Below are positions 28,463 through 64,000 of a DNA stretch of 64,000 nt, piece by piece. The position numbers were made by a program, and so were the translations under genes. The stretch comes from Deltaproteobacteria bacterium (lineage in GTDB: Bacteria; Myxococcota; Kuafuiibacteriia; Kuafuiibacteriales; Kuafuiibacteriaceae). Numbering within the stretch: the first letter of the stretch is position 1; each line of letters opens with the position of its first letter. A model generated the notes under the pieces. The model searched no databases. It was given only the letters and a program-made list of their open reading frames with translations, and was not told the origin of the DNA. The DNA lies in assembly GCA_040218735.1 (NCBI GenBank), contig JAVJQW010000041.1, positions 1-64,000 of the forward strand. The letters are read 5' to 3'.

Positions 28463-28582
28463 GGCGCTGTCAGGACCGGACGACACGTCGGACCGCCACC
28501 TTTAGCAGGGCCCGGGGTGCGTGCCGAGGCCCTCGCCGCCCGGGGCGTGGCGACGAGGGCCTGGCTGCCCGCGTTTCGCTGT

Positions 28583-30688: not shown

Positions 30689-30821
30689 TGAATGCGTCGG
30701 CGAATAAGCGGGTTCGGAGCGCGACGTCAAGGGGGGATCGAAAAGAAAGGCGCGCGCACGTGCCAGCCCTCACGTTTCGTAACGCGGATGTCCGCGCCAC
30801 CAGGCCCGTGTTCGACCCTCC

Positions 30822-45134: not shown

Positions 45135-45183
45135 GTCGCGGCCACCATGGCGCGTCGTCGATCCGTTTGCCATCATCATCGAC

Positions 45184-46542: not shown

Positions 46543-46583
46543 GTCAAGAGTCGCGCAAGGCGTGAAAACCTCTAAAAGTGCTC

Positions 46584-46622
46584 GGAACGTAGGTTGACGT
46601 CGCACGTTCCCGCCTAGAAACT
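46584..46622 (+). promoter_or_regulatory. Putative promoter/operator of the giant-AAA operon
   Basis: TTGACG (46594-46599), 17 nt, then GAAACT; the -35 box is bracketed by the inverted repeat GGAACGT(46584-90)/ACGTTCC(46604-10). Confidence 0.5.
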
Positions 46623-46645
46623 GTTTCGGCTCGGACGGGACGCAG

Positions 46646-49600
46646 GTGGGGGACGGCATCGAACCGAAGCGGACCTTCCGTCCGTACGAGCGCACGCGGG
46701 TCGACGACGGATCGTCGCCCGCGATCGACGACGCCCATACCAAGAAGCGAGACGCCGACGCGCCGGGCAAGGATCTCGTCGGCGACGTCTTCCAGGCCAC
46801 GCACCAGATCGACGACGACGCGGAGCAGGCGAAGTTCCGCGCGAAGGACGCGACGACCGAGCGCGCGCGTGCGGACCACGTCGAAGCGAAGGACCGTCTG
46901 ACGGTCGGGGGCGCGACCTACAAACTCGACGCCGCCGCGAAGCGCTCGATGACGGCGCTCGAACCGAACCGCCAGGTGATCGCCGCCGTCGACGGCGCGA
47001 TCCGCGCGGGCCGACCGCTGCTGTTGTCCGCAGCTCCGGGCTCGGGGGCTGCGTACACCACCGAGTGGGCGCTGCGCGCGATGGATCGTCCGCACGAGAT
47101 CGCACGCCTCTCGAAGAACACCCCGCTCGAGGCGCTCGTCGGAGCGCTGCGCCCCGAGGACGGCAACGCGCTGCGCGTGAAGGACGGTCCGCTGACGCGC
47201 GCGATCCGCGACGGACGCGTCATGGTCATCGATAGCGTCGAACGCGCGGACCCGCAGGTCCGCGCGGCGCTCAAGGCGCTCGCCGCGGGGCTCAAACGAT
47301 TCCACCACCCGGTGAGCGGCGAGTTGATCGACGTGCACCCCGAGTTCCGGCTGGTGATGATCGGTGACCAACGCGAGCGGCGCCTCGGCAGCCAGCTCGG
47401 CGTGCGCACCGTCCGCGAGATCCGCGCCTACGACGAGGCCGAGCACCGGCGCCTGCTCGTCGATCAGGTGGGGCTCCCGGAGGAGCTCGCCGGGCGCCTC
47501 GCGCAGTTCCACGAAGACGTGATGGAGAAGGTCGACGCCTCCGACCTCGACTTCTCGCGCGGCTTCCCGCTCGGGTGGTCGATGCTGGAACGCGTCGGTC
47601 GCCGGCTCGCGTCGGCGCGCGATCCGGACGACGCAGAGATCGGCCGCGCGCTGATGGGCGTCTACGGTGCGCGCCTCACGAAGTCGCACCACCGCGACGC
47701 GTTCCAAGGCCTGCTCGAAGACCTCGACGCGTGGCCGCCCAAGCAGCGCCCCGCGCGAAACAGCGCCGACGAGAGCTTCGTCCGCACGCCGCGGATCGAT
47801 CGGATCCTCGCGCAGGCCGAGGACGCGCTCGTCGCCGGCGAGATGCTCCACCTCCGCGGCGCGGGCCAGAGCGGCATCACGACCCTCGTCGAGGAGATCG
47901 CCCAGCGGCGCGGCCAGGAGCTCGTGACGATCGTGGGCCACTCCGGCCTCGACGCGCAGACCCTCGTCGAGCGGCCGACGTTCGACGAGGCGGGCGACCT
48001 CTACTTCAAACCCGGTCGCATCACCCGCGCGCTCCTCGAAGGCGGCATCCTCTTCGTCGACCACCTCGACCAGCTCCCGCGCGAGCAGCAGAACGCGATC
48101 TTCGCGTTGCGCGACATGAAGACGATCCGCGTGCTGGAGGGGGACACGATCGTCGACAAGAAGGTCGACCCGCGCGCGCGTATCGTGATGTCGACGACCA
48201 CCGGTCACGTCCGCGGCCGCGCGACCCCCGAGGCGAGCGACCGCGCGATGGCGACGGAGATCGCGGTCGACGCGCCCGACCTCGACGAGGTCACCGGCCC
48301 CTTCATCGACCGCCTCGTCCCCGGCCGCGAGCGCCTGAAAGAGCGCCTCAGCGACGTCATCTACGACCTCGACGCGGAGGGGAGCATCCCGCGGCTGAAC
48401 CGCCTGCAGCGGATGACCGACTTCGTGCGCACGGCCGAGCTGCTCTCCGAGTCCGGCTTTACGAACAAGGGCGCGATCGCGCGCGCGCTGCGGATGGTCT
48501 TCGATCCGAAGGAGAGCGACGTCCTCACCGAGCTCGATAGCGCGAAGCCGATGGACGACGACGTCGAGGGTCCGCTGTGGCAGCGCGTGCTCGGGTTGTC
48601 CGACAAAGACGTCGCGTCGAGCCTCGACAAGACCGGCTACCGCATCACGAACAGCATGCACGCGCACCTCGATGCGCTCGCGATCGCCCACCGCCTCGGG
48701 CGACCGGTGCGATCGATCGGCCCGGCGAGCTCGGGCAAGACGGTGCTCGGCTCGGTGTTCGGCGCGCTGATCGACAAGTCGGTGGTGCGCACCAACTTCT
48801 CGCAGTCGACGGAGGGGCAGAGCCTGCTGTCCGCGATGGCGCCGGTGAGCGAGGGCGAGCGCACCATCTTCAAGGAGTCGCTCGGGCCCGCGCGCACCGC
48901 GGCGCAGACGAAGTCGCTGCTGATGGCCGACGAGTGGAACCTCTCGCGGCAGGGCCAGATGGCGCTCAAGTCCGCGCTCGACAAACGCGGGCGCCTCATC
49001 GACCCGGAGGCGGACATCGAGGAGAGCTTCGCGGAGTCGTTCTTCTACGCCGCGCAGAACGAAAACGATCCGGCGCTGGGCCGCTACGAGCCGCCGCCCG
49101 AGGTCGCGGACTGCATGTTCACGATCTTCGTCGACCCGCGCCCGGTCGACGAGAAGATCGAGGTCGTCAAATCGCAGTGTGATCTGAAGGGCGAGCACAT
49201 CGAGCCCATCGCGAACGTGTTCGCGGATCTCGAAGTGCTCGTGGAGCGCGGCAAGCTGTCGTCGCAGGTCGCGCCGATCACCGCGACCGAGCGCGACATC
49301 CTCAAGGCCGCGCGCATGGCGCACTACCTCATCGAGCGCGATCGTGTGCGTGGGCCGGACGAGCAGCGCCAGCTCGTGGGCCGCGAGGTGTTTCGGGTGA
49401 TTCGCGATCAGCTCGCGAGCCCCGAGGAGCGCGAGATGGTGCTCGACCTCGTGCGCAAACGCTTCGGCGACGACATCGAAGCTCCGCCGCGTCCGAACGG
49501 CGTCGAGAAGGTCACGGTCGAGGTCGACGGCGAGTCGGTCGAGATGGTGCAGATCGGCTCGGCGCGGTTCCCGGTGCGCGTGCTCCCCGAGGAGCTGCAG

Positions 49601-52600
49601 AAGGACGTCCCGAAGCTCGACGGCATCCGCGATCCGGTCGGCATCCAGTTCGAGTTCCTGGAGTCGGTGCTGCTCGGCGCCGAGCTGAAGGAGCCCGTGG
49701 CGGTGGTCGGCAACACCGGCACCGGCAAGACGATGCTGATGAAGTGGCTCGCGCACCACCTCAACCAGCCGGTGATCGAGCAGCCCTTCAACGCAGACAT
49801 GACCGAGGAGCACCTGTTCGGTGCGCAGGTCATCGGGCGGGGCGGGAAGATCACGTTCAAGTACGGCGACATCCCGACGGCCATCAAGAACGGCTACTGG
49901 TACATCGGCGACGAGCCGACGACGCTCGGTCACAGCGTCCGCGAAGCGCTCAACCCGGTCACCGAGCGCTCCGAGATCCAGATTGCGCAGAAGCGTCCGC
50001 CCGAGACGATCCCCGCCAAGGACTGGGACCCGCAGTTCAGGTACTTCGAGACCGCGAACGGCGACGACATCCGGCAGGACGGCTACTCCGCGCCCGAGGC
50101 GAGCCGGCGGCGCATGGTGGTGCTGCCGGAGCTCGACACGATCGAGGACTACGAGGCGGTCGCGCGGCGCGACTACCAGTCCGAGGGCTTCGAGCCGATC
50201 GAAGGGCTGAAGCGCACCGACGAAAACCGCGCCGCCGTGCGGGACGCCATTCTCGAGCTCGTCGGACCCTCCGCCTTCAACGAGGCGTTGGTTCGTGCCT
50301 TCGAAGGTGAAGAGGTCGAACCCGTCCAGCACGTGCCTTCGATCGAGCTGACGGACGCGGACGCGAAGACGATCGTCGAAGCGCTCTCGATCTACACCTA
50401 CAAGAAGAAGGACGCGTCGGTTCGCGAGCTGCTCACGGATTTGCTCGCGGCGTCCACGGGCCAGGCGGCGTTTCGGGCCGCGCCCAGCATCGACCCCGAG
50501 GTCCTCTCACCGCGCGCGAAAGAGGCGCTGGGGGGCGCGGCGGTGGTCGAGGGGCGCCTCGTCAACCCGGACGAGGTGATGGCCGCGACGGAGCTGTTCT
50601 TCTCGCTGCGTGAGCTGCAGCGCGACGCGCCGGACGCGAGCCTCACGCCGCTCACGCCGCGCATCTACGGGACGTTCATGGACGCCCTCGTGCAGCTGCG
50701 GACGCGGCGCTCCTTCGGTGCGGCGTTGATGCGCGCGTCCGAGATGTTCCTGGCGCCGAAGCTGCCGGCGAGCGTGCGCAAGGATCTCACCGCGCACGTG
50801 GAAGACCGCGCGCACGTCGGTGATGAGACGCCGGCGTCGGTGCCGGAGCAGCTCGCGACGAAGGTGCGGTTCGGCGAGGTTTACGTCGAGCGCGGGTCGG
50901 AGCGGCCCTGGAAGCCGTCGAACGAGCGCTTCCCGCTCACCGAGCCGCGCTGCCGCAACCTGCAGGCGATCGGCGAGGCGGTCGAGCTCGGGCGCGGGCG
51001 TCCGATCAGCATCACCGACGACGAAAACGGCGAGGCGGTCGAGACGCTCCGCGAGTTCGGGCGCATCACGGGCCGTCGTGTCACGGAGGTGACGCTGCCG
51101 CCGAACGTCGAGCTCGAGCAGCTGCTGGAACGGCTCGTCGTCAGCGCGACTTCGAAGAGCGGCTTCGAGCCGGAGCTTCAGCAGATCGCGCAGGCGATCA
51201 AGGACGGCCACACCCTCGTGCTGCGCGGGTGCGGGCAGGTCAGCACCAACCGGCTGGAGCGTTTGAACTCCCTCGGCGACGGACGCAACGCGGTGCACTG
51301 CCCGGTGTCGGGGGAGTGGCTCGAAGCGCACCCGCAGTTCCGGCTCGTGATGATGCGGACGCCGGACTCCGTCGAGAAGTACTCGGCGGCGCTGGAGAAC
51401 CGGCTCGTGACGCCGCCGCTCACGACGCAGCACGTCCCGACCACCGAGGCCGCGCGTGAGTCCCGCGCTGCGGAGCTCGCGGCGGTGCTGCGCGAGCGCT
51501 GCGAGATGTCGCGCGACACCGCGGACAAACTCGGCGTGTTCCACGTCTACCTGAACCACATGCTGCGCGAGGGGCGCTTCGCCTCGGGCCGCGCGGTGGG
51601 GACGTTCCTCAACCACGACGCCGAGTCGGTCGGTCGGCGCCTCGCCTGGCTGGTCGAGCGCAACGAGGTCGACGACGAAGACGAGGCGCTGGTCGAGCTC
51701 GTGATGTCGATCTACGGCGAGCGCCTCGCGACGCCCACGGATCGCGACAAGCTCCTGGCGCTGGTGCAGAAGGCGTTCTCGACGGAGAGCACGGGCGTCG
51801 ACATCGACGCGACGGTGTCCCCCGGCCCGAACATGAACCGCGTCGGTCCGTGGGCGCTCACGCGTGACCCGCGCGGGCGCGCCGACGATCTCCCGAAGGC
51901 CGAGGCCGTGCTCCCCGAGGGCGAGGTGTTCGACCAGGTGCTGCAGAAGGTCTCGGCCGCGGCGCAGTTCGACGAGGTCATTCACCTGACCGGCAACGAC
52001 TTCATCGCGGACGCCGCCGTCGCGTCGCTCGCGCGGCTGACGACGTCGCCGGTGGTGGAGGTCGAAGGCAACCGCGACATGACCGAAGCCCACCTCTTCG
52101 GCGGGACGGTGCAGGACCAGCAGACGGGCGACTTCGTCGAGACCGAAGGGTTGATCTTCCAAGCGCAGCGCGAGGGCGGGACGGTCGTCGTGAAGAACGC
52201 GTCGACGCTCCCGCCGGAGGTGCTCACGCGACTCACGCAGATCGCCGCGACCGGTCACCTGCAGCGCGTGAAGAACGGCGTGCTCGAGGAGCCGGCACGG
52301 ACGTTCTCGCTGGTGCTTCGGACCAGCGAAGGCGACCCGCCGCTCGCGCGTGAGCTGATGAGCCTCGCGCGCACGGTGCGTTGCCCCGAGATCGAAGACG
52401 GCTCCGAGCTCGTCGCGACTGCGGCGCACCACCTCCGCGCGGTGGCGGGCGGAGCGCAGATCGCCGAGGAGCTGGTGAGCTTCCACCTGATGGCGGCGAA
52501 GGCGCTCGAGAGCGAGTCGCTGGTCGGGCGGCAGCAGATGCGCATCGACAGCGCGCGCCTCGTCGAGGCGACGCGTGATCTCGCCGAGCTCGTCGCAAAC

Positions 52601-58600: not shown

Positions 58601-58969
58601 GCCGGGTTCGAACACGCCTGGGACGACGAGCTGAAGGCACACCTGCTCCACCAGATCCGCGGTGAGTACGACGCGACCGACGACGAGCGCGGCGCGGCGG
58701 AGAGCATCGGCCTCCTCAAGATGATGGAGGCCGAGGTCGGGATGGTGATGAACTTCTCCGACGGCCAGGGCATGCCGGGCGCCGAGGACGTGATGCGCTC
58801 GGCGAAGGACGACGGGTTCAGCTTCCTCACGGTCGGGGTCGGACCGGACTGCGTGGGTGTCAGCCGCCTCGGCCCGTACGGCCTGTACGCGCGCAACCTC
58901 GCGCAGATGATCCAGAAGATGGCGCCGAGCATGGCGAAGAGCTGGGAGCTCGCCGGGAGGCTGGCGTGA
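46646..58969 (+). CDS. Giant midasin/Rea1-like protein: six tandem MoxR/dynein-related AAA+ modules, helical linker, two VWA(MIDAS) domains
   Basis: 4107 aa. Intact Walker A/B 'GPASSGKT'/'LMADEWN' (aa ~692) and 'GNTGTGKT'/'YIGDEP' (aa ~1022); four degenerate modules, each with an 'HPxFRLV'-type strand; MIDAS 'DQSGS' (aa 3574) and 'DESSS' (aa 3939). Confidence 0.85.
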   Translation: MGDGIEPKRTFRPYERTRVDDGSSPAIDDAHTKKRDADAPGKDLVGDVFQATHQIDDDAEQAKFRAKDATTERARADHVEAKDRLTVGGATYKLDAAAKRSMTALEPNRQVIAAVDGAIRAGRPLLLSAAPGSGAAYTTEWALRAMDRPHEIARLSKNTPLEALVGALRPEDGNALRVKDGPLTRAIRDGRVMVIDSVERADPQVRAALKALAAGLKRFHHPVSGELIDVHPEFRLVMIGDQRERRLGSQLGVRTVREIRAYDEAEHRRLLVDQVGLPEELAGRLAQFHEDVMEKVDASDLDFSRGFPLGWSMLERVGRRLASARDPDDAEIGRALMGVYGARLTKSHHRDAFQGLLEDLDAWPPKQRPARNSADESFVRTPRIDRILAQAEDALVAGEMLHLRGAGQSGITTLVEEIAQRRGQELVTIVGHSGLDAQTLVERPTFDEAGDLYFKPGRITRALLEGGILFVDHLDQLPREQQNAIFALRDMKTIRVLEGDTIVDKKVDPRARIVMSTTTGHVRGRATPEASDRAMATEIAVDAPDLDEVTGPFIDRLVPGRERLKERLSDVIYDLDAEGSIPRLNRLQRMTDFVRTAELLSESGFTNKGAIARALRMVFDPKESDVLTELDSAKPMDDDVEGPLWQRVLGLSDKDVASSLDKTGYRITNSMHAHLDALAIAHRLGRPVRSIGPASSGKTVLGSVFGALIDKSVVRTNFSQSTEGQSLLSAMAPVSEGERTIFKESLGPARTAAQTKSLLMADEWNLSRQGQMALKSALDKRGRLIDPEADIEESFAESFFYAAQNENDPALGRYEPPPEVADCMFTIFVDPRPVDEKIEVVKSQCDLKGEHIEPIANVFADLEVLVERGKLSSQVAPITATERDILKAARMAHYLIERDRVRGPDEQRQLVGREVFRVIRDQLASPEEREMVLDLVRKRFGDDIEAPPRPNGVEKVTVEVDGESVEMVQIGSARFPVRVLPEELQKDVPKLDGIRDPVGIQFEFLESVLLGAELKEPVAVVGNTGTGKTMLMKWLAHHLNQPVIEQPFNADMTEEHLFGAQVIGRGGKITFKYGDIPTAIKNGYWYIGDEPTTLGHSVREALNPVTERSEIQIAQKRPPETIPAKDWDPQFRYFETANGDDIRQDGYSAPEASRRRMVVLPELDTIEDYEAVARRDYQSEGFEPIEGLKRTDENRAAVRDAILELVGPSAFNEALVRAFEGEEVEPVQHVPSIELTDADAKTIVEALSIYTYKKKDASVRELLTDLLAASTGQAAFRAAPSIDPEVLSPRAKEALGGAAVVEGRLVNPDEVMAATELFFSLRELQRDAPDASLTPLTPRIYGTFMDALVQLRTRRSFGAALMRASEMFLAPKLPASVRKDLTAHVEDRAHVGDETPASVPEQLATKVRFGEVYVERGSERPWKPSNERFPLTEPRCRNLQAIGEAVELGRGRPISITDDENGEAVETLREFGRITGRRVTEVTLPPNVELEQLLERLVVSATSKSGFEPELQQIAQAIKDGHTLVLRGCGQVSTNRLERLNSLGDGRNAVHCPVSGEWLEAHPQFRLVMMRTPDSVEKYSAALENRLVTPPLTTQHVPTTEAARESRAAELAAVLRERCEMSRDTADKLGVFHVYLNHMLREGRFASGRAVGTFLNHDAESVGRRLAWLVERNEVDDEDEALVELVMSIYGERLATPTDRDKLLALVQKAFSTESTGVDIDATVSPGPNMNRVGPWALTRDPRGRADDLPKAEAVLPEGEVFDQVLQKVSAAAQFDEVIHLTGNDFIADAAVASLARLTTSPVVEVEGNRDMTEAHLFGGTVQDQQTGDFVETEGLIFQAQREGGTVVVKNASTLPPEVLTRLTQIAATGHLQRVKNGVLEEPARTFSLVLRTSEGDPPLARELMSLARTVRCPEIEDGSELVATAAHHLRAVAGGAQIAEELVSFHLMAAKALESESLVGRQQMRIDSARLVEATRDLAELVANGEPLERAVTDVVTRLYLHPLEGMDLSETLEDAFSRLVEALDGWLEIQRVPPIDLVANPEVDALRQDYERVSNDLAGELFASAGDALGVALDKRDAAQVRVVLAALESSSMLPPALAKRAAKLAKSLTGDRLEETAARSITTFSKKLTKSYSAEGDFKEAAHGFLRGARVWDLEYRLQIVGRYHDLFGTLAKAGSGIAQTRLEELERLAERFDGAQAQTRLEASRRAVDAATVRYEQQGGANDPQIDAIFKRLVSTWDLVSTSPIFRAHALPELKDLEKHLVSLEAAYDARGTPTPEFVQLSEAMREASRALEGMRIAEQSADLRRGLARSNQSTEQIVRSLRSEVETIRTLDSAKSRNEVLTQVERRIATATGDGGFLRLDPSGATVTRPEGRSDTEIGVEAAQLAEAEVRLHIAEQTERIMGEVQNLASAPPASPAKVFANYDLEMAPDAPTVKATPAEQHYETQMAALTKSAAAMRTTRTKAHAEALRAKDDERIERMFDARLKQSVQEVGAQIQGSATELIQTIGSVSGALEVDPELAADVHAAVQLLEVARDSAGGWMRRSAEAAYAVGRGILRVGVKIMTFGFGDLPPEQVEPAPELAEAKRAAQRVLERLHAIAVAERQELPDFNELEVHEANTDVLTQQLVSAQTLGELAAKFSKIDTLRQGEDDAGVARHLAAVAGSITRERGMEETLRQVSAFVAGADALSAAAAEGGVPVEMARAVDAVMSAAESVRTQSLAAGAYKNTVRALARAVERIDEMAEEGSVPEILVNVREEIVALEERIQAMFVGRQDLLTIEAGNYREMLRSLGEATGEESSAHVVEAAVSRNLARFDAKAKVAEEDVDRLTECIGGIGERRDSEASANRPSRAARLATINVSFDRASEITFPEIPAEDDESAEEAAAKSEAHALRGEIYDVTKRLEDDVAERSGGLEGETAAALEALDALEASRGVRAMNDALGRLDEVRAAIDTIATKEMDRRTTAREVGLVRNALGRLSSTLRGLESAPDEAIAKVDAVIEGVRPLAAALREDRFQHLARDWAAQARVALTDTRGTIVETIEALPEEKRSGNVVVALESVVDRLTPPIGRLGAWSRSQLLWHAKQRIEATLGHDDAEDPKLAALLEKIDAGVATHAAVADGPEYEEAAADVLGATLDIGAAMIAAKKPNREQLATYETLVGQVDRILAAEVPENDRENITDAIQTVQALTKGKGPVAEAARELSVALGHVRQAENHRTIVAEKQALRASAESYLETVRDARVLLDEAAKAFLDYDPLESEQPLKVTARALRDAVTTASEAMNGPAAVVIARAFLDLQVRLQGLGDGPISAEAGQIVEELDPVVRNARAMAEAKDAPELFTKMVAHFDDKTSAKKKRTDELAKWAQGASEALRALMAVEDAEMPALLASTLDDWFEALKPKTSSAPAAPTVQAEAKPVKPVKSALAGLVDTDRRSVGAALGALAAESRSAPNAPDGERTEGVAQEVENRDAPRAEKGSDLGEIHRDELSGGAVTERSDKIEIVSMDREGLDSIRERMQSAAIDEVHENDGEVLLSEFESFIEENAELVDKMAATLREYPGLETVIVVDQSGSTSKQSNGTSIIDQERAAAALVMAAHMRAERNCAVVGFGNGISSEKPVSAVGGGRWGVDVFVHKPMALKLDAEAANFAYGVTGNCGGGTDFIEPINVGMGQFTSKANNKLVLLLTDAQLHETADVRRKIDTVRDGGVGVAVLGFGAARHVSQLAGEFGEHVSSYEQAIERAHELFLRAVVDNAGRFKGDVDGAADGIGTPQGQHPMEAASSDGPMDTALDLAHPVDIAGDPGEVYAARGPRRELINTVDRGVYERALKALDLKHRSVTKTPSFKRCRQEVAALRRRHEREGTIEALAGAIQPGLPKTRGVEWERKQLSGPSFDERQLVIWAAGRAQGVPVQRIFKRRKGADEAKATVVLAMDESSSMGDSEKMRANLEAMIAYGDALKAIDPEIKIAVVGYGDRVRLHAGFEHAWDDELKAHLLHQIRGEYDATDDERGAAESIGLLKMMEAEVGMVMNFSDGQGMPGAEDVMRSAKDDGFSFLTVGVGPDCVGVSRLGPYGLYARNLAQMIQKMAPSMAKSWELAGRLA

Positions 58970-59415
58970 CGCTGAGGTTCTTCAACGGGCTGCAGATCGA
59001 CGTCCCGAAGGGGTGGACCGATCTGTCGACGGTGATCATCGCGCCGAAGAAGGACGTCGCGCAGGGCGACCGGCCTTCGATCAACCTCGTGGTGAAGCGG
59101 CGCCCCGCCAAGAAGAAAGAGGACGCCGACACGCTGAAGTCCTACCTGTCGTTCATGCGGCAGAGCTTCGGCGAGCTGCACGACCTCGAGACCAAGGACC
59201 TGCTCGTGGGGAACACACGCGCGAAGGCGGTGCGCTTCAAGGCGTACGCCGACGGGCGCTGTTTCACGCAGACCACGATGCTCTACACATCGGCGGGGGA
59301 CGAGATCTCCGCGACGGTGACCCAACTCGACGAGGATCCGACGACCGCGAAAGAGGTCGAGAAGCTCCTCAAGTCCATTCGCCCCGCGGCGGGTGGTGTG
59401 TTCGGAATCAAGTGA
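58966..59415 (+). CDS. DcrB/DUF1795 (PsbP/Mog1-fold)-like protein
   Basis: 149 aa; 'IDVPKGWTDLS', 'PSINLVV', terminal helix 'EVEKLLKSIR'; GTG overlaps the giant gene's TGA. Confidence 0.6.
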   Translation: MTLRFFNGLQIDVPKGWTDLSTVIIAPKKDVAQGDRPSINLVVKRRPAKKKEDADTLKSYLSFMRQSFGELHDLETKDLLVGNTRAKAVRFKAYADGRCFTQTTMLYTSAGDEISATVTQLDEDPTTAKEVEKLLKSIRPAAGGVFGIK

Positions 59416-59428
59416 AGGAAGCGACGAG

Positions 59429-62119
59429 ATGAGCGACGGAGTGAGACTTCAGCCCCAGGTAGCCAAGCCCACCGTGGCGCAGACCGAAGCGCCGGTCGTG
59501 CAGCAGGAGGCGCCCGCGCAGAGCGATGCGATGCGCGACGTCTTCGAGCAGGCGAAGGCCACGCTCGGCGATCAGGCGCAGATGGGGACGCACATGAAGC
59601 GTCTCTCGAGCAGCCCGGTGTTCGAGACCGTGAAGCGCGCGATGGAGCGCTACACGCCGGCGGGCCAGCGCGTTCAGCCGGAGCATGTGCTGCTGCAGAT
59701 GGCGAAGGACCAGGGCCTGAAGCTCCCCGACGGCGCGGAGAAGAAGCTCCTCGACGCCGCGGCGCAGGAGCCCGGCAGCGGCTTCTCGGACAGCATGAAG
59801 CTGCTGGTGGTCGGCGCAAGCCTCCTCGCGGGCGACGCCGGCATGACGACCGAGCACCTGTCGAAGGCGATCGCCGGATCCGAAGGGGTGGCGGGCGAGG
59901 TGCTGAACGCCGCGCTGAAGAACGAGCAGGAGGAGCGCGTGCTCACCGGCGGGACGACGTCGGTCGACGGTGAGTTCAAGAAGCTCGACTCGCCGCTGGT
60001 GAACGAGCTCACCGAGGACCTCGTGTTGCTCGCGCAAGAGGGCTTGCTCGACCGCATCTCGGGTCGCGACAAGGACATCGAGAAGGTCGCGCGGATCCTG
60101 TCGCAGCGTCAGCTCAGCAGCGTGGTGCTCACCGGCGACCAGGGCGTCGGCAAGACGGCCGTGCCCGAGGGCCTCGCGATGATGATCGCGGACGGCAAGG
60201 CCCCCGCCGGGTTCGAGGACACGCGCATCATGAAGCTGCAGCTGTCCCGCCTCGCGAAGAAGTGCAACTGCCCGGGCGGTCCGAGCCCCGAGGACGTGAT
60301 CGCGGAGCTCGCCGCGGAGGTCGCGCAGGCGGCGCGCGCGGAGCCGCCGACGCAGATCGTCTTCTTCATCGACGAGATCGGCCAGAAGCTGCTCCTCGAT
60401 CCGCAGGCGCAGCTCCTCGCGCAGCAGATGAAGGAGTCGCTCGCGCGCGGGCAGCTCAAGATCATCGGCGCGTGCACGACCGACGAGTATCGCCAGTCGG
60501 TCCGTCAGGACCCGGCGCTCGCGAACCGGCTCCAGGCCCACGAGCTGCAGGAGCCGACGCCGCGTCAGGCGGTGCAGATGCTCCTGACCAACATGGAGAA
60601 ATTCGCGTCGTACCACGGCGTCACCTACGACGCGGGCGCGGCGCAGGCGGCGGTGGACATGGCGATCGGCGTCGGGCAGCGCGAGGACTTCCGCCTGCCG
60701 CGCGGCGCGCTCTACTGGATGGACGCCGCGGGTGCGGCGGTGAAGCTGAGCCTCAAGGGCGACCCGCCCAAGGTGCGTGTGCTGCGGCGGCAGATCGACG
60801 ACGCGAAGACGGCGCGGCGGGAGGCGGTCGGTGACTCCGACGGCGCCGAGCGCGTGCGTGACGTGCTGACGAAGCAGATCGACGCGATGGTGGAGCAGCT
60901 GACGGCGCTCCTCCCCGAGGTCGACAAGGAGCGCAAGCTGCGCTCCGACCTCATCACGCTCGGCGAGCAGCTTGCGACGGAGACGATCGCGGACGACCGC
61001 GACACGGATCGCATGGTGGATCTGAAGAAGCAGATCGACGCGATTCACGGCGAGCTGGAGGCGCTGCCGGAGCAGCACTTCTCGACCGTGGTCGACGCGT
61101 ACGCGATCTACAAGACGGTCGCGGACGATCGGGACATCGCGATCGATCGTGTCGTGCCGACGAAGAACGACGAGGCGTTCGAGCCGGCGAAGGTGCTCGG
61201 CAGCCGGGTGTTCGGTCAGGACCACGCGGTGCAGGAGGTCTCGCGGCGGCTCGTCTTGGACCGCGCGAAGCTGCGCGACCCATCGAAGCCGGTCGGCGCG
61301 CACCTGTTCTGCGGCCCGTCGGGTGTCGGCAAGACCGAGCTCGCCAAGGCGCTCGCGGACGAGTTCTACAACGGCGCGTTCGAGAACATCTCGTGTAACC
61401 GGCTGCAGGAGCGGCACGAGCTGGCGATCCTCAAGGGGGCGCCTCCCGGCTACGTCGGCTACGGCGAGACGATCGATCTCGCGGAGACGATCCGGAAGCT
61501 CAACGCGCGGGGCGGCGGTGTGCTGCTGCTCGACGAGATCGAGAAGGCGCACCCGGACATCTTCCCGCTGATCATGCAGATCATGGACGAGGGCTTCTTC
61601 CTCGACAGCAAGGGGAACCAGGTCGACTGCTCGCGCATCCACGTGGTGATGACGAGCAACCTCGGCAACGACATCTTCGCGAAGTACCAGGACGACGGGA
61701 AGTACAAGAACCCGGAGCGCATGGCCGCGGAGTTCGAGCGGGTGCGCGACGGGCGCATCCCGATCGAGGTCACGGGGCGCATCACCGAGATCGGCTCGAT
61801 CGACATCTTCAACCCGACGTCGAAGGCCATCCGCAAGCGCATCGTCGAATCGCAGATCGCGAAGATCGAGCAGTTCGGCGGCGACGGGCGCGCGTTGTCG
61901 ATCTCCGCGTCGCAGGAGGCCGTCCTGCAGCTCGCGACGATCGGCTTCCACCCGCGGCTGGGTGGTCGTGCGTTGAAGGCGGCGATCGCGAAGCACGTCA
62001 CGGACCAGCTCGCGAACGAAGTGATCGCCGGGCGCGTCCCGGACGGGTCGAAGGTGATGGTCGACTTCGACGGCACCAACTTCACGTTCGAGATCGGCAA
62101 GACGGGGGCGATGAGCTGA
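59429..62119 (+). CDS. Divergent ClpB/ClpV-like Hsp100 ATPase
   Basis: 'LDRISGRDKDI', 'GDQGVGKT', 'FFIDEI', coiled-coil middle domain, 'GPSGVGKT', 'LKGAPPGYVGYGE', 'LLLDEIEKAHP'; ATG 59429 with AAGGAAG upstream. Confidence 0.9.
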   Translation: MSDGVRLQPQVAKPTVAQTEAPVVQQEAPAQSDAMRDVFEQAKATLGDQAQMGTHMKRLSSSPVFETVKRAMERYTPAGQRVQPEHVLLQMAKDQGLKLPDGAEKKLLDAAAQEPGSGFSDSMKLLVVGASLLAGDAGMTTEHLSKAIAGSEGVAGEVLNAALKNEQEERVLTGGTTSVDGEFKKLDSPLVNELTEDLVLLAQEGLLDRISGRDKDIEKVARILSQRQLSSVVLTGDQGVGKTAVPEGLAMMIADGKAPAGFEDTRIMKLQLSRLAKKCNCPGGPSPEDVIAELAAEVAQAARAEPPTQIVFFIDEIGQKLLLDPQAQLLAQQMKESLARGQLKIIGACTTDEYRQSVRQDPALANRLQAHELQEPTPRQAVQMLLTNMEKFASYHGVTYDAGAAQAAVDMAIGVGQREDFRLPRGALYWMDAAGAAVKLSLKGDPPKVRVLRRQIDDAKTARREAVGDSDGAERVRDVLTKQIDAMVEQLTALLPEVDKERKLRSDLITLGEQLATETIADDRDTDRMVDLKKQIDAIHGELEALPEQHFSTVVDAYAIYKTVADDRDIAIDRVVPTKNDEAFEPAKVLGSRVFGQDHAVQEVSRRLVLDRAKLRDPSKPVGAHLFCGPSGVGKTELAKALADEFYNGAFENISCNRLQERHELAILKGAPPGYVGYGETIDLAETIRKLNARGGGVLLLDEIEKAHPDIFPLIMQIMDEGFFLDSKGNQVDCSRIHVVMTSNLGNDIFAKYQDDGKYKNPERMAAEFERVRDGRIPIEVTGRITEIGSIDIFNPTSKAIRKRIVESQIAKIEQFGGDGRALSISASQEAVLQLATIGFHPRLGGRALKAAIAKHVTDQLANEVIAGRVPDGSKVMVDFDGTNFTFEIGKTGAMS

Positions 62120-62120
62120 G

Positions 62121-63653
62121 ATGCTGACCGGCCGACTCACCAGCGGCAGGGCGTTCGACGTCCTCCACGCGCCCGTGCTCGACATCGCGCTCGCCGAGAC
62201 GACGTCGAAGTTCGGGCCCGACCTCGCGAAGAGCGAGGCGGCGGTGCGTTGTCACCGCGCGATCGCGGAGCCGCTGCAGAAGGCGTTGGCCAACAGCAAC
62301 GACATCAAGTCGGTGTTCCGCGTCGACGAAGACGATCGCGCCGACCTCGACGTCCTCCAGATCGGCAAGACGCTGTTCCCGATGGTCGTCCGTCAGCTCA
62401 AACACGGGCAGATGGCGATCGAGCTGTACCCGCCGGGGAAGAAAAACGACTTCGACTTCACCGCGGCGAAGCGGCTCGGGGTCGCGGGCCTTTACGGGGC
62501 GAAGAAGAAGGAGCTCGATCGGCTCGTCGTGATTCGGGGCCACGGTCCCGGGACAGACCTCGTCGTCCGCGACAAAAACGTGATTCGCGACGTGTCGTAC
62601 GCGTGGGCGCTCTTCGAGGTCGCCGCGTTTGCGCTGCGGCGCGCGAACGCCCCGAAGAAGGTGACGACCGAGACGCGGTTCGACCCGGTGATGGAGGTCG
62701 ACGTCACCGTCGAGAAGAAGAAGACTTCGGGCGGGCGGCTCGTGGCGGCGCTCCTCGAAGGGAAGCTCGGCGCCCCCGCTGCCGGGCCGGCGCTCGCGCA
62801 CGAGCTGTGCGGGGTCGCGGTGCACCGCGGTCGCACCGTCGCCGTGACGGCGCGGCGCGCGACGGGCGAGGGCGTGCGGGTGCACTTCGAGACGAAGGAC
62901 GGGTGGCGGTCGCTTCCGATTCCGGCGGACACCGCGTGGCCGGTCGGCGGCGTGACCGTCGCGCAGGCCGGCAACAAACTCCACCTGCTCGGCGGCGTCG
63001 ACACCGACGGCGACGTGCTCGACAGCCACTTCACGGTCGACCTCGACAAACTCGACTTCGCAGGAGGCATCGAGAGGGAAGCGAACCTCGATGACCCTTC
63101 GGCGTGGGCGTCCGCGGTCGCCGACGGTCGGGACGTGTTCATCGGCGGCGGCGTCGCGGGCTTCATGGTGAAGGCGGGCGAGCAGCGGCAGCGCGAGAAG
63201 ATCACCAACCGCGGCTTCGCGCTCGTGCGGCGCGGCGGCCTCGCGGAGCGGGCTCCGGCGCCCGGCGACCTCACACGCAGCTACGCGCTCTGTCACGGCG
63301 GCTGTTTGTTCTTCGCGCCCGGCGACGCGCGCGACGGCAAGGTGCGCATCTACGACACCTCGAAGGCCGGCGCCTGGTTGACGTTGCCGAAGCTGCCGGC
63401 GTCGGTGGGGCTCGGACAGCTCTTCGTCGACGACCTGACGCTCTATTACGCGGGTGGCTTCACCGAGGACGGCAAACCGCACGACGGGATCTACGCGCTC
63501 GACCTGTCCGACGCCCGCGCGGAGTGGACGAAGGTCGGCCAGTCGCCGTTCTGCGCGGGGATGAGCCGCCTCGTCGACAAGGGCGACCGCGTCGAAGCCC
63601 TCGCGATCGCGCCCGGACAGAGCGCGGTCTACACGGCGACGGGGGTCGGGTGA
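62121..63653 (+). CDS. Kelch-repeat (beta-propeller) protein with an uncharacterised N-terminal domain
   Basis: 'KLHLLGG', 'DVFIGGG', 'TLYYAGGF', 'W.TLPKLP', 'EWTKV' are Kelch-type repeats in the C-terminal half. Confidence 0.75.
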   Translation: MLTGRLTSGRAFDVLHAPVLDIALAETTSKFGPDLAKSEAAVRCHRAIAEPLQKALANSNDIKSVFRVDEDDRADLDVLQIGKTLFPMVVRQLKHGQMAIELYPPGKKNDFDFTAAKRLGVAGLYGAKKKELDRLVVIRGHGPGTDLVVRDKNVIRDVSYAWALFEVAAFALRRANAPKKVTTETRFDPVMEVDVTVEKKKTSGGRLVAALLEGKLGAPAAGPALAHELCGVAVHRGRTVAVTARRATGEGVRVHFETKDGWRSLPIPADTAWPVGGVTVAQAGNKLHLLGGVDTDGDVLDSHFTVDLDKLDFAGGIEREANLDDPSAWASAVADGRDVFIGGGVAGFMVKAGEQRQREKITNRGFALVRRGGLAERAPAPGDLTRSYALCHGGCLFFAPGDARDGKVRIYDTSKAGAWLTLPKLPASVGLGQLFVDDLTLYYAGGFTEDGKPHDGIYALDLSDARAEWTKVGQSPFCAGMSRLVDKGDRVEALAIAPGQSAVYTATGVG

Positions 63654-64000
63654 TGTTGGCGTATCCGACCGAGCTCAAGACCCGCATCGTGCAGCTGCTC
63701 GAAGACGTCGGGCCGCTCGCGCTCGTGAGCGGGATCGGCTTCGACGCCGATGACGAGGGGCTGCTCGCCGACAACCTGCGTGCCGTGCGCGAGGGCGGGT
63801 GGCGCTTCGTCGAGCTACCCGCCGAGCCGGACGGTGCGCGCCTCGCGCTGGTGGGTGCGTGGCGCGAGGAGGCCGTGGTGGTGCTCGTCCCCGACGCGCT
63901 GCCGCGCCCGCTCATCGAGCTGGTGCGTGCGTTCATCGACAAACGCGACGAGGTCGATCTCGGTGACTTCGAAAAACGTCGTCGCCGCGCCGACCAGAGC
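63653..64000 (+). CDS. Hypothetical protein, truncated by the window edge
   Basis: ATG overlaps the preceding TGA (TGATG); frame open to the end: MLAYPTELKTRIVQLLEDVGPLALVSGIGF…. Confidence 0.65.
   Translation, partial: MLAYPTELKTRIVQLLEDVGPLALVSGIGFDADDEGLLADNLRAVREGGWRFVELPAEPDGARLALVGAWREEAVVVLVPDALPRPLIELVRAFIDKRDEVDLGDFEKRRRRADQS

What the first reader, a model, noticed from the sequence alone, without database searches (positions are those of the whole stretch)
46584..64000. Operon-level system: giant AAA-VWA + DcrB-like + ClpB/V-like + Kelch + further ORF
Seen: five co-oriented genes with GTGA overlap, 13-nt gap, 1-nt gap and TGATG overlap, behind one candidate promoter, continuing past the window edge. 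Established: DUF1795/DcrB-fold proteins include Eag chaperones of type VI effectors; ClpV disassembles T6SS sheaths; Kelch propellers are substrate adaptors. No T6SS structural genes are in this window. Inference: a dedicated, apparently undescribed protein-remodelling or disassembly system with two different AAA+ motors and adaptors, possibly acting in conflict or predation.
Basis: partly seen in the sequence, partly recalled or inferred. Interest (0 to 1): 0.82.

Follow-up and report, generated by a model that had tools for sequence, protein, structure and literature searches.

The report
Bacterial midasin-like motor with conserved partners
A few uncultured Myxococcota carry a 4,107-residue protein built like the eukaryotic ribosome-assembly motor midasin (six fused ATPase units, a long arm, metal-dependent gripping domains), always together with a Kelch propeller protein and a small partner, which looks like an undescribed protein-pulling machine.

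Summary
Five co-oriented genes lie at the stated junctions. The cluster runs on beyond the window to nine genes.

The giant protein has exactly six AAA_5/MoxR-class modules. Only AAA3 and AAA4 keep Walker A and B motifs, in 12 of 12 relatives. A linker of about 1,500 residues follows, then two VWA domains with complete MIDAS motifs. Its best solved relative is midasin.

Eight Myxococcota genomes carry it. The Kelch-like gene follows it in 7 of 8 and sits elsewhere in the eighth. Among 61 relatives, strong Kelch-like matches occur only in the 6 genomes that hold the giant. The small ORF5 protein comes with them in 6 of 8. The DcrB-fold protein (5/8), the ClpB-like ATPase (4/8) and ORF6-9 (3/8) are accessory.

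I found no link to type VI secretion. The closest published theme is the computationally described MoxR-vWA "ternary" conflict systems, but their defining features are not met.

I read it as a cytoplasmic, midasin-like pulling machine with a Kelch/ORF5 adaptor. Its biological role is unresolved. Module trees favour an origin separate from midasin but do not prove it. No binding or expression test succeeded.

The parts
46646..58969 (+). Giant midasin-like protein, 4107 aa. It has six AAA_5-class modules, a long linker and two VWA/MIDAS domains.
   Evidence: ORF and translation come, with GC3 of 0.93. Pfam finds AAA_5, AAA_lid_7, VWA_2 and VWA. The best PDB hits are midasin at E about 9e-24, against CbbQ/NorQ at about 4e-6.
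46949..47656 (+). AAA module 1 (residues 102-337), degenerate. Walker A is GSGA with no Lys. Walker B is D-G/S-x-E.
   Evidence: The iterated AAA_5 HMM scores it at 169 bits. Motifs were read in an alignment of 12 relatives.
47777..48493 (+). AAA module 2 (residues 378-616), degenerate. Walker A is GxGQSGxT with no Lys. Walker B is D-H.
   Evidence: (153 bits).
48638..49393 (+). AAA module 3 (residues 665-916), catalytic. It has GPASSGKT and a DE Walker B in 12 of 12 relatives, followed by a midasin-type lid.
   Evidence: (174 bits). AAA_lid_7 covers residues 839-941 at E 3.8e-9.
49628..50437 (+). AAA module 4 (residues 995-1264), catalytic. It has GxTGTGKT and a DE Walker B in 12 of 12 relatives.
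   Evidence: (165 bits). It holds the best Pfam AAA_5 stretch, residues 1018-1157.
50930..51706 (+). AAA module 5 (residues 1429-1687), with no P-loop.
   Evidence: 173 bits. Its module HMM hits midasin AAA3 at E 6.6e-15. No Walker motifs are seen.
51923..52639 (+). AAA module 6 (residues 1760-1998), with no P-loop.
   Evidence: 149 bits. Its module HMM hits midasin modules at E 1.7e-9. No Walker motifs are seen.
52640..57325 (+). Linker of about 1,560 residues, rich in Ala, Glu, Leu and Arg. It is the least conserved part of the protein.
   Evidence: Composition and conservation are profiled. No HMM match to midasin linkers was found (all independent E above 0.06). That it is helical is inferred from composition only.
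57338..57925 (+). VWA domain 1 (about residues 3565-3760) with a complete MIDAS motif (DxSxS...T...D).
   Evidence: Pfam VWA_2 covers residues 3569-3626. The motif is kept in 12 of 12 relatives.
58433..58966 (+). VWA domain 2 (about residues 3930-4107) with a complete MIDAS motif. It is the best conserved part of the protein.
   Evidence: Pfam VWA covers residues 3934-4067. DxSxS and D are kept in 12 of 12 relatives, and T in 11 of 12 with Ser in the other. Conservation is 0.54-0.60.
58966..59415 (+). DcrB/DUF1795-fold protein, 149 aa, with no signal peptide or membrane segment. It is accessory, present in 5 of 8 genomes.
   Evidence: 5 of 5 orthologues hit PF08786, best E 5.3e-7, while the window's own copy scores 21.1 bits, below the 27.2 cut-off. 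Atlas feature score is 0.96 and structure TM is 0.77. No segment exceeds Kyte-Doolittle 1.6. Orthologues are 52-70% identical.
59429..62119 (+). ClpB-family two-ring AAA+ protein, 896 aa, with a unique N-terminal region of about 170 residues. It is an extra paralogue and accessory (4 of 8 genomes).
   Evidence: Pfam and NCBIfam results are. It is colinear with T. thermophilus ClpB over residues 172-888 at E 1.4e-91. The first-ring pore-loop KYRG is replaced by CNCPGG, while GAPPGYVGY in the second ring is intact. A canonical ClpB lies elsewhere in the genome.
62121..63653 (+). Kelch-like core partner, 510 aa. Residues 1-215 form a domain with no fold match in the Protein Data Bank, followed by a six-bladed Kelch propeller.
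   Evidence: The full model has pLDDT 80.5. Foldseek matches Kelch domains at probability 1.0. The N-domain model has pLDDT 79.7, with best Foldseek E 0.088 and best VIA Z 4.3. It is present in 8 of 8 genomes.
63650..64000 (+). ORF5, a small core partner of about 145 aa, cut by the window edge and ending at contig position 64087. It has a conserved C-terminal [WS]-[ED]-[FY]-[LV]-[PA] tail.
   Evidence: Translation is. Six orthologues are aligned, and their tails are listed. No Pfam, NCBIfam or PADLOC family matches. Atlas structure neighbours are P-loop/AAA-like at TM 0.54-0.65 on a low-confidence model, which is a lead only.

Best explanation
The cluster encodes a soluble, cytoplasmic, ATP-driven protein-remodelling machine built on the midasin plan.

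Shown:
- One chain holds six MoxR/AAA_5-class modules, enough for a ring.
- Only modules 3 and 4 can bind and hydrolyse ATP.
- A linker of about 1,500 residues carries two VWA domains whose MIDAS sites are fully conserved.
- A Kelch-propeller protein is an obligate genomic partner, and the small ORF5 protein a near-obligate one.

Inferred mechanism: ATP turnover in AAA3/AAA4 moves the linker relative to the ring. The MIDAS domains grip an acidic residue of a ligand. That ligand is either the Kelch/ORF5 adaptor itself (ORF5's conserved acidic C-terminal tail is the best candidate) or a client that the adaptor presents. Force then pulls the ligand out of a complex.

In one clade the system is extended. 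A DcrB-fold chaperone and a specialised ClpB-type unfoldase would hold and unfold what is extracted. Two paralogous proteins of unknown family (ORF6 and ORF8), ORF7 and a radical-SAM-like enzyme are also added.

The biological purpose is not resolved. It could be a dedicated assembly or disassembly task, or a conflict system.
For: Architecture:
- An iterated HMM finds exactly six AAA modules at 149-174 bits each, and six in three relatives as well.
- Walker A and B motifs are intact only in AAA3 and AAA4, in 12 of 12 relatives.
- Both MIDAS motifs are kept in 12 of 12 relatives.
- Midasin is the best solved relative at E about 9e-24, against about 4e-6 for CbbQ/NorQ.
- Each of the six module HMMs scores higher on midasin modules (34-65 bits) than on any other AAA+ ORF of the window's own 11.6-Mb genome (37 bits or less).

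Partnership:
- The giant is full length in 6 of 61 related genomes. Strong Kelch-like matches (E 4e-38 or better) occur in exactly those 6, with one marginal hit at E 7e-4 elsewhere.
- The Kelch-like gene lies directly downstream in 7 of 8 genomes. In the eighth it sits on another contig, still in the order DcrB, ClpB, Kelch.
- ORF5 is found in 6 of 8 genomes at E 0.004 or better, with its start overlapping the stop of the Kelch gene.
- Three genomes hold just the three-gene operon of giant, Kelch and ORF5.
- One genome carries a fusion of a ClpB-type AAA_2 domain with a Kelch propeller in the same neighbourhood, which links these two functions.

Location: no hydrophobic segment exceeds Kyte-Doolittle 1.6 in any of the nine proteins.

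Mechanism by analogy, from established knowledge: in midasin the MIDAS domain binds an acidic residue of the UBL domain of the propeller proteins Rsa4 and Ytm1. MoxR-vWA pairs are chaperone and co-chaperone (passages of PMC7159879 and PMC3495828 read).
Against: - Nothing is experimental, and every carrier genome is a metagenome-assembled genome.
- No binding was tested, because the one co-folding job could never be queued.
- Transcription evidence is weak. One RNA library holds short contigs of 173-370 nt at depth 2-4 in the giant and ClpB-like genes. None bridges a gene junction, and DNA carry-over is not excluded.
- The linker has no detectable homology to the midasin linker, and I infer that it is helical from composition only.
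- The Kelch N-domain is not a ubiquitin-like fold by its order of secondary-structure elements and matches nothing clearly, so the Rsa4/Ytm1 analogy is loose.
- In one genome the giant is unlinked from its partners.
- Partner alignments are shallow, at 5-8 sequences.
- The patchy distribution (full length in 4 of 19 same-family genomes, and not found in the 75%-complete genome of the same genus) fits an accessory or conflict module better than a housekeeping one.
Confidence: 0.55

Rival explanations
1. It is a biological-conflict system (anti-phage, kin conflict or programmed death) of the MoxR-vWA 'ternary system' kind that Kaur et al. 2020 described by computation. The MoxR hexamer and the vWA co-chaperone are fused into one chain. 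A ClpB-type protein replaces the FtsH-type second ATPase. The variable downstream genes are effectors or their modifiers. This overlaps the best explanation in mechanics and differs in purpose.
For: - Sections 7, 21 and 22 of PMC7159879 describe systems in deltaproteobacteria that combine MoxR, a vWA protein with a large all-helical N-terminal domain, a second two-domain AAA+ ATPase, beta-propellers, an inactive P-loop third component, and a radical-SAM enzyme acting on a peptide from a standalone gene. All of these themes recur here.
- The distribution is patchy.
- The core is constant while the accessory genes vary between clades.
- One relative has a 902-aa neighbour with a weak ATLF-type HExxH hit at E 2.9e-5, below the cut-off.
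Against: - PADLOC names no system here. Only the generic AAA domain of the ClpB-like protein hits models (PDC-M37B, DolB).
- The defining features of the published subtypes are not met. There is no FtsH-type ATPase. There is no GXXXTAKS P-loop. The propeller is not fused to the vWA. There is no bpMoxR hit at E 0.01 or better.
- The minimal three-gene version has no recognisable effector domain.
- The published systems are themselves untested predictions.
Confidence: 0.3
2. It is a cofactor-insertion or enzyme-maturation chaperone of the kind formed by classical MoxR-VWA pairs such as CbbQ/CbbO, NorQ/NorD and CoxD/CoxE. It would act on a specific metalloenzyme.
For: CbbQ and NorQ are the next-best solved relatives after midasin. 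A gas-vesicle GvpN model hits weakly, at 72.5 bits against a cut-off of 266.8. The abstract of PMC13036017, seen in the listing, describes NorQD as driving metal insertion.
Against: No candidate client enzyme gene is conserved next to the giant. Upstream genes differ between genomes, and the conserved neighbours are a Kelch propeller and proteins of unknown family. Known maturation pairs are small separate proteins. Nothing in them explains a 1,500-residue linker or two MIDAS domains.
Confidence: 0.07
3. It is a type VI secretion accessory set. The DcrB/DUF1795 protein would be an Eag-type effector chaperone, and the ClpB-like protein a ClpV sheath recycler.
For: The DUF1795 fold is confirmed. 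The ClpV1 model is formally the top NCBIfam hit for the ClpB-like protein.
Against: - The ClpV1 score (389 bits, cut-off 885) equals the ClpB score (386 bits). The protein is colinear with ClpB including the middle domain.
- None of the cluster proteins I scanned (the nine plus three upstream ORFs) hit a type VI family.
- The DcrB-like and ClpB-like genes are missing from 3 and 4 of the 8 genomes, while the giant, Kelch and ORF5 persist.
- I did not search the whole genome for type VI genes.
Confidence: 0.03
4. It is a dynein-like transport or motility motor that walks on a bacterial filament.
For: It shares a single-chain six-module ring in which modules 5 and 6 lack P-loops. That dynein has this feature is recalled, not tested here. 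It also has a long arm.
Against: No dynein-specific Pfam family was reported for the giant at E 0.01 or better. It ends in MIDAS domains, which are ligand-gripping domains and not track-binding ones. No cytoskeletal gene is conserved beside it.
Confidence: 0.03

Closest known systems
Midasin (Rea1 / Mdn1 / MDN1), the eukaryotic pre-60S ribosome remodelling AAA+ protein
   Same: - Six AAA_5-class modules sit in one chain, with a midasin-type lid (AAA_lid_7), a very long linker and a C-terminal MIDAS domain with DxSxS...T...D.
- It is the best solved relative.
- It is the next-best class of giant proteins in two database-wide searches.
- It has a beta-propeller protein as a partner. Midasin's ligands Rsa4 and Ytm1 are propeller proteins; this point is recalled, and the propeller part was not in the passages I read.
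   Different: - It has two MIDAS domains and not one.
- Only modules 3 and 4 are catalytic.
- The linker shows no sequence homology and has no long acidic tract.
- There is no module-by-module orthology. Modules 1, 2, 5 and 6 form their own clade (SH-aLRT 97), and module 3 groups with single-module MoxR proteins. AU tests do not formally reject positional clades (p 0.06-0.18).
- The partner's N-domain is not a recognisable ubiquitin-like fold.
- The host is bacterial, with no nucleus or pre-60S particle.
MoxR-vWA-centric ternary systems of multicellular prokaryotes, FtsH-type and beta-propeller-type (Kaur, Burroughs, Iyer and Aravind 2020, PMC7159879; a computational description)
   Same: It combines a MoxR-class ATPase with a vWA co-chaperone. 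A large region lies N-terminal to the vWA, here inferred to be helical. There is a second two-domain AAA+ ATPase, a beta-propeller component and a radical-SAM-like gene in the extended version. It occurs in deltaproteobacterial or myxobacterial lineages (for the paper; for this cluster).
   Different: Six MoxR modules and the vWA domains are fused in one 4,107-residue chain. The second ATPase is ClpB-type and not FtsH-type. The propeller is a separate six-bladed Kelch protein and is not fused to the vWA. The P-loops are canonical GxxxxGKT and not GXXXTAKS. There is no bpMoxR (PF20030) hit, and no VMAP, iSTAND, EAD or ubiquitin-like conjugation components were detected.
Other bacterial single-chain six-AAA 'midasin-like' giants, noted by earlier agents of this scan in Omnitrophota. 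I found them in no paper.
   Same: They share six AAA_5 modules in one chain plus a MIDAS domain (notes). Two giants of 7,557 and 6,708 residues show six modules.
   Different: Those proteins have alternating (A-B)x3 modules that cluster with midasin's even modules in my tree. They are much longer and carry extra enzymatic domains according to the notes. The Myxococcota family is compact, has two active modules and comes with a conserved partner operon.
ClpB / Hsp104 disaggregases
   Same: The ClpB-like protein is colinear with ClpB from the first ring through the middle domain to the second ring (E 1.4e-91). Both Walker A/B pairs and the second-ring pore loop GAPPGYVGY are intact.
   Different: It scores 386 bits against the 1,232-bit equivalog cut-off. 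The first-ring pore-loop Tyr motif is replaced by CNCPGG in all four orthologues. The N-terminal 170 residues match no Clp_N domain. A canonical ClpB exists elsewhere in the genome.

Membership tests
Midasin (Rea1/MDN1) family | Six tandem AAA+ modules of the MoxR/AAA_5 class in one polypeptide | tested here: met
   An iterated HMM finds six modules at 149-174 bits in the window protein and six in three relatives. Pfam gives AAA_5 at E 1.8e-54 and AAA_lid_7 at E 3.8e-9.
Midasin (Rea1/MDN1) family | C-terminal MIDAS (VWA) domain with DxSxS...T...D | tested here: met
   Two VWA domains are present, and both motifs are kept in 12 of 12 relatives. Midasin has one such domain.
Midasin (Rea1/MDN1) family | Linker homologous to the Rea1 linker, followed by a long Asp/Glu-rich tract | tested here: not met
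   Four linker HMMs searched against seven midasins gave independent E-values all above 0.06. Composition shows no long acidic run.
Midasin (Rea1/MDN1) family | Module-by-module (positional) orthology with midasin AAA1 to AAA6 | tested here: inconclusive
   All six module HMMs best-hit midasin AAA1, AAA3 or AAA5 whatever their own position. The tree places modules 1, 2, 5 and 6 in their own clade at SH-aLRT 97. AU tests of four positional clades gave log-likelihood losses of 11-16 and p 0.06-0.18, so they are not rejected. I named these groups after seeing the tree.
Midasin (Rea1/MDN1) family | Ligands with a ubiquitin-like domain that offers an acidic residue to the MIDAS site (Rsa4, Ytm1) | tested here: inconclusive
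   The Kelch-like partner's N-domain model (pLDDT 79.7) has no clear fold match, with best Foldseek E 0.088 and best VIA Z 4.3. No binding test ran.
MoxR-vWA ternary systems, FtsH type (Kaur et al. 2020) | Third component with two FtsH-type AAA+ domains, the first of them inactive | tested here: not met
   The second ATPase is ClpB-type (AAA_2, AAA_lid_9, ClpB_D2-small) with both P-loops intact.
MoxR-vWA ternary systems, FtsH and beta-propeller types | MoxR P-loop variant GXXXTAKS, described in the paper as often present | tested here: not met
   The active modules read GPASSGKT and GxTGTGKT in 12 of 12 relatives.
MoxR-vWA ternary systems, beta-propeller type | [quoted passage not shown] | tested here: not met
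   The protein ends with VWA domain 2. The propeller is a separate six-bladed Kelch protein. There is no PF20030 hit at E 0.01 or better.
ClpB (TIGR03346) and ClpV1/TssH (TIGR03345) equivalogs | Score above the curated cut-off | tested here: not met
   It scores 386.3 bits against 1232.1 for ClpB, and 389.2 bits against 884.95 for ClpV1. It is a ClpB-family paralogue and neither equivalog.
DcrB / DUF1795 (PF08786) | Match to the family profile, and the fold | tested here: met
   The window protein scores 21.1 bits, below the 27.2-bit cut-off. All 5 orthologues match, with best E 5.3e-7. Atlas structure TM is 0.77 to a DUF1795 cluster and the feature score is 0.96. Fold-level membership is met, while the window's own sequence score is under Pfam's gathering cut-off.
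Kelch beta-propeller | Six-bladed Kelch-type propeller | tested here: met
   Foldseek gives probability 1.0 and target TM 0.62-0.73 to KLHL12, NS1-BP, KEAP1 and designed six-bladed Kelch proteins. Pfam Kelch_4 scores 21.4 against a cut-off of 21.6, which is borderline.
Type VI secretion accessory set (Eag chaperone plus ClpV) | Co-occurrence with type VI structural genes and an effector that bears an Eag-binding region | not tested
   None of the cluster proteins scanned hit a type VI family. I ran no genome-wide type VI search.
Radical SAM superfamily (ORF9, outside the window) | CxxxCxxC cluster motif and a profile match | tested here: inconclusive
   The motif CKKGCHFC is visible in the translation. 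Pfam Radical_SAM gives E 0.0081 at 16.8 bits, below the 29.5-bit cut-off. There is no NCBIfam hit and no PDB sequence hit.

The most novel reading that the evidence does not exclude
This is a working prokaryotic counterpart of the midasin system. A single-chain six-module ring uses two active sites to swing a long arm. The MIDAS domains on that arm pull on a dedicated beta-propeller adaptor, as Rea1 pulls the propeller proteins Rsa4 and Ytm1. If so, the midasin/dynein building plan, which the papers I read treat as a eukaryotic invention, also exists as a complete partnered machine in Myxococcota. It would offer a compact bacterial model for how such motors turn ATP into a pulling force. A bolder version is that the family shares a six-module ancestor with midasin. 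My AU tests do not exclude this.
Probability: 0.2. Interest if true: 0.9.

Novelty: new variant of a known kind. Interest (0 to 1): 0.7.

Why it matters
Midasin and dynein are the textbook single-chain AAA+ ring motors. The papers I could read attribute the six-module fusion to early eukaryotes, derived from bacterial MoxR (PMC3495828; PMC2837639; PMC3160578).

A compact bacterial protein with the same plan has three uses:
- With only two live ATPase sites and genetically defined partners, it gives a simpler system for asking how ring motions become a pull on a MIDAS ligand.
- It shows that this plan can arise, or persist, outside eukaryotes.
- It extends the MoxR-vWA systems, predicted to act in conflict in social bacteria, to a fused giant form coupled to a ClpB-type unfoldase and a DcrB-fold chaperone.

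The family is rare, with about ten representatives among 1.84 billion clustered proteins. It is so far annotated only as 'AAA family ATPase' or 'MoxR-like ATPase'.

Tried and rejected
- **Co-folding.** No binding result exists in either direction.
- **Metagenome contig scans.** Both found no relative. The patterns were weak, so this says nothing about absence. The first genome scan failed because the alignment had no conserved stretch, and I repeated it with a tighter alignment.
- **Promoter and terminator scan** of 46300-46800: 0 sites.
- **PADLOC:** no defence system, only generic AAA hits.
- **Kelch N-domain fold:** no clear match. This is not evidence of a new fold.
- **ORF6 and ORF8 as degenerate ClpB second-ring domains:** not supported (hhalign probability 3% and 0.1%). 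They are paralogues of each other (probability 98.6%, E 8e-16).
- **ORF6 and ORF9 against PDB sequences:** nothing meaningful. ORF6's SMC and LmuB hits are coiled-coil matches.
- **Linker against midasin linkers:** no homology.
- **RNA evidence:** one metatranscriptome holds short low-depth contigs in the giant and ClpB-like genes. None crosses a gene junction, so co-transcription remains untested.
- **Upstream gene** (44926-46542): not found within about 9-12 kb upstream of the giant in the four genomes checked (G004, G010, G011, G046), so I excluded it from the system.
- **Earlier notes of this scan:** none covers this family.
- **Papers:** searches for 'bacterial midasin', 'prokaryotic midasin', 'midasin-like', 'bacterial dynein', 'prokaryotic dynein', 'dynein-like AAA', midasin plus myxobacteria and midasin/Rea1 plus prokaryotes found no description of such a protein. 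The Omnitrophota giant-gene preprint mentions AAA_5 only in a figure legend and does not mention midasin. Iyer et al. 2004 and Garbarino and Gibbons 2002 were not read. The supplements of PMC7159879 were not opened and could list related operons.

Full report
**Where the window lies.** The window is the first 64 kb of a 471.8-kb contig of an 11.6-Mb, 70%-GC genome. Record titles of related loci label them as Myxococcota or 'deltaproteobacterial' metagenome-assembled genomes.

**Observation.**
- GTGA overlap at 58966-58969.
- A 13-nt gap before the ATG at 59429.
- A 1-nt gap before the ATG at 62121.
- GTGATG at 63650-63655.

Third-position GC of 0.86-0.99 in these frames supports them as genes. 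The proposed promoter was not found by a consensus scan, which gave 0 sites.

Beyond the window edge the same strand carries four more genes:
- ORF6 (975 aa)
- ORF7 (about 247 aa)
- ORF8 (631 aa)
- ORF9 (348 aa, with a CxxxCxxC motif and a sub-threshold radical SAM hit)

These run to contig position 70654, where a convergent SDR-like gene begins.

**The giant protein.**
- *Domains.* Pfam finds AAA_5 (E 1.8e-54), the midasin lid AAA_lid_7, and VWA/VWA_2 at the C-terminus.
- *Six modules.* An iterated HMM delimits exactly six AAA modules (residues 102-337, 378-616, 665-916, 995-1264, 1429-1687, 1760-1998) at 149-174 bits each. It finds six in three relatives too, including a distant 3,880-residue one.
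- *Active sites.* In an alignment of 12 family members, only AAA3 (GPASSGKT ... DE) and AAA4 (GxTGTGKT ... DE) have Walker A and B motifs, in 12 of 12. AAA1 and AAA2 lack the P-loop lysine and the Walker B glutamate. AAA5 and AAA6 have no P-loop.
- *Linker.* After the ring come about 1,560 residues rich in Ala, Glu, Leu and Arg. This is the least conserved part and has no detectable similarity to midasin linkers.
- *MIDAS domains.* Two VWA domains follow, and their MIDAS residues are kept in 12 of 12 members.
- *Solubility.* No membrane segment is predicted.

**Relatives of the giant.**
- The best solved relatives by sequence are midasins (E about 9e-24), followed by CbbQ and NorQ (about 4e-6 to 9e-5).
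- A word-indexed search restricted to proteins of 2,258-7,188 residues returned 23 proteins among 1,703 scored candidates. Sixteen were bacterial clusters of 2,402-4,245 residues, named only 'AAA family ATPase', 'MoxR-like ATPase' or 'NorQ'. Seven were eukaryotic midasins.
- An exhaustive HMMER scan of 1.84 billion representatives with the AAA3-AAA4 region gave 1,134 hits at E 1e-3 or better. About nine were full-length family representatives plus fragments, and one was a distant colinear member. The rest of the listed 150 were multi-module giants such as midasins.
- Each module HMM scores 34-65 bits on midasin modules and at most 37 bits on any other ORF of the window's own genome. The modules are therefore nearer to midasin's than to the local MoxR repertoire.

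**Is it an orthologue of midasin?** Probably not.
- Every module best-hits midasin's uninterrupted odd modules, whatever its own position.
- In a module tree, each of the six positions is monophyletic across the bacterial family (SH-aLRT 99-100).
- Modules 1, 2, 5 and 6 form a clade of their own (97).
- Module 3 groups with single-module MoxR proteins of the same genome (96).
- Midasin's even modules group with modules of two other giants.
- AU tests of four positional clades cost 11-16 log-likelihood units but were not rejected (p 0.06-0.18). I named those groups after seeing the tree.

I therefore call it a midasin-like protein, most likely assembled independently.

**Gene-neighbourhood conservation.**
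- *Carriers.* Full-length homologues at 40-63% identity occur in 6 of 61 related genomes. That is 4 of 19 same-family genomes besides the window's own, and one genome of another family. Three further genomes gave only weak single-module matches.
- A pattern scan of one genome per species returned seven loci, two of them new. That makes eight carrier genomes in all.
- *Partner counts by tblastn*:
  - Kelch-like: 8 of 8. It lies directly downstream in 7. In the eighth it is on another contig, where the order DcrB-like, ClpB-like, Kelch-like is kept.
  - ORF5: 6 of 8 at E 0.004 or better. One more genome has a weak match at the same position (E 0.16), and in one it was not found.
  - DcrB-like: 5 of 8.
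  - Full ClpB-like: 4 of 8.
  - ORF6: 3 of 8, plus one partial copy.
  - ORF7, ORF8 and ORF9: 3 of 8 each.
- *Minimal operon.* Three genomes have only giant, Kelch-like and ORF5, followed by convergent genes.
- *Co-occurrence.* Across the 61 relatives, strong Kelch-like matches occur in exactly the six genomes with the giant. There is one marginal hit (E 7e-4, with an internal stop) elsewhere.
- *A telling fusion.* One genome lacks the ClpB-like gene. A few genes downstream it has an 813-residue fusion of a ClpB-type AAA_2 domain with a Kelch propeller, and a 902-residue protein with a weak ATLF-type HExxH hit.
- The gene upstream of the giant was not found in the roughly 9-12 kb upstream of the giant in the four other genomes checked.

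**The partners.**
- *Kelch-like.* The model (pLDDT 80.5) is a six-bladed Kelch propeller at Foldseek probability 1.0. It is preceded by a 215-residue alpha/beta domain. Modelled alone (pLDDT 79.7), that domain matches nothing clearly.
- *DcrB-like.* This protein is a genuine DUF1795/DcrB fold. It has no signal peptide and is the most conserved partner, at 52-70% identity.
- *ClpB-like.* It is colinear with ClpB through the first ring, the middle domain and the second ring (E 1.4e-91). It has a unique N-terminus of about 170 residues, and CNCPGG stands in place of the first-ring pore-loop Tyr motif. It scores far below both the ClpB and ClpV cut-offs. The genome has a canonical ClpB elsewhere.
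- *ORF5.* It has no family. It has a conserved acidic C-terminal tail and P-loop-like structural neighbours on a low-confidence model, which I treat only as a lead.
- *ORF6 and ORF8.* They are paralogues of each other and belong to no known family.

**Occurrence and expression.** Near-identical DNA occurs in sponge, biofloc and aquaculture metagenomes. One 22.8-kb contig is colinear over 46000-61555. One metatranscriptome holds short, low-depth contigs inside the giant and ClpB-like genes, none of which spans a junction. This is weak evidence of transcription and no evidence on co-transcription.

**Comparison with what is known.**
- The papers I read treat the six-module fusion as a eukaryotic event derived from MoxR (passages).
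- My searches found no description of a bacterial midasin-like protein.
- Earlier agents of this scan noted six-module giants in Omnitrophota. None noted this family.
- The closest published theme is the set of MoxR-vWA 'ternary systems' predicted to be conflict systems in multicellular prokaryotes. The FtsH type in particular combines a second two-domain AAA+ ATPase, a vWA protein with a large helical N-domain, propellers and a radical SAM effector (sections read).
- This cluster shares those themes but fails each subtype's defining features. PADLOC does not recognise it.

**Verdict.** The finding is real and conserved.

I commit to a midasin-like pulling machine whose MIDAS arm works with a Kelch/ORF5 adaptor (confidence 0.55). 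A conflict-system role is the main alternative reading of its purpose (0.3). The decisive binding test could not be run.

Noticed in passing
window 19405-28501, minus strand: Three tandem large genes (841, 1312 and 1138 aa). Each has a ClpB second-ring-type AAA_2 domain and ClpB_D2-small; the 841- and 1312-aa proteins also show a second P-loop upstream. With the cluster's ClpB-like gene, the window holds four non-canonical ClpB paralogues.
   Followed up: partly
window 30783-37478, plus strand: A 2,231-residue protein made largely of HEAT repeats (HEAT_2 at E 4e-34) lies between the ClpB-paralogue block and the giant's cluster.
   Followed up: no
own genome contig C6, about 140.6-144.2 kb (locus L014): A 1,791-residue ORF with two to three AAA_5 modules at its C-terminal end. 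It is the next-best match to the giant's modules in this genome.
   Followed up: partly
L018 5836-8274 and 8281-10986: In one relative's cluster there is an 813-aa fusion of a ClpB-type AAA_2 domain with a Kelch propeller. Next to it is a 902-aa protein with a degenerate P-loop, a coiled coil and a weak ATLF-family HExxH hit at E 2.9e-5, below the cut-off.
   Followed up: partly
proteins P0033 (7557 aa) and P0035 (6708 aa): Two other giants have six AAA_5 modules that alternate in two types, (A-B)x3, and group with midasin's even modules in the module tree. Their origin is unknown to me. They may be the Omnitrophota giants noted by earlier agents.
   Followed up: partly
window 44926-46542, plus strand: A 538-aa protein of no known family lies 100 nt upstream of the giant. 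It was not found within about 9-12 kb upstream of the giant in the four other genomes checked.
   Followed up: partly
L024 12096-12893: In the genome where the giant stands apart from its partners, a 265-aa ORF with a collagen-like Gly-Pro-x repeat tract lies downstream of it.
   Followed up: no
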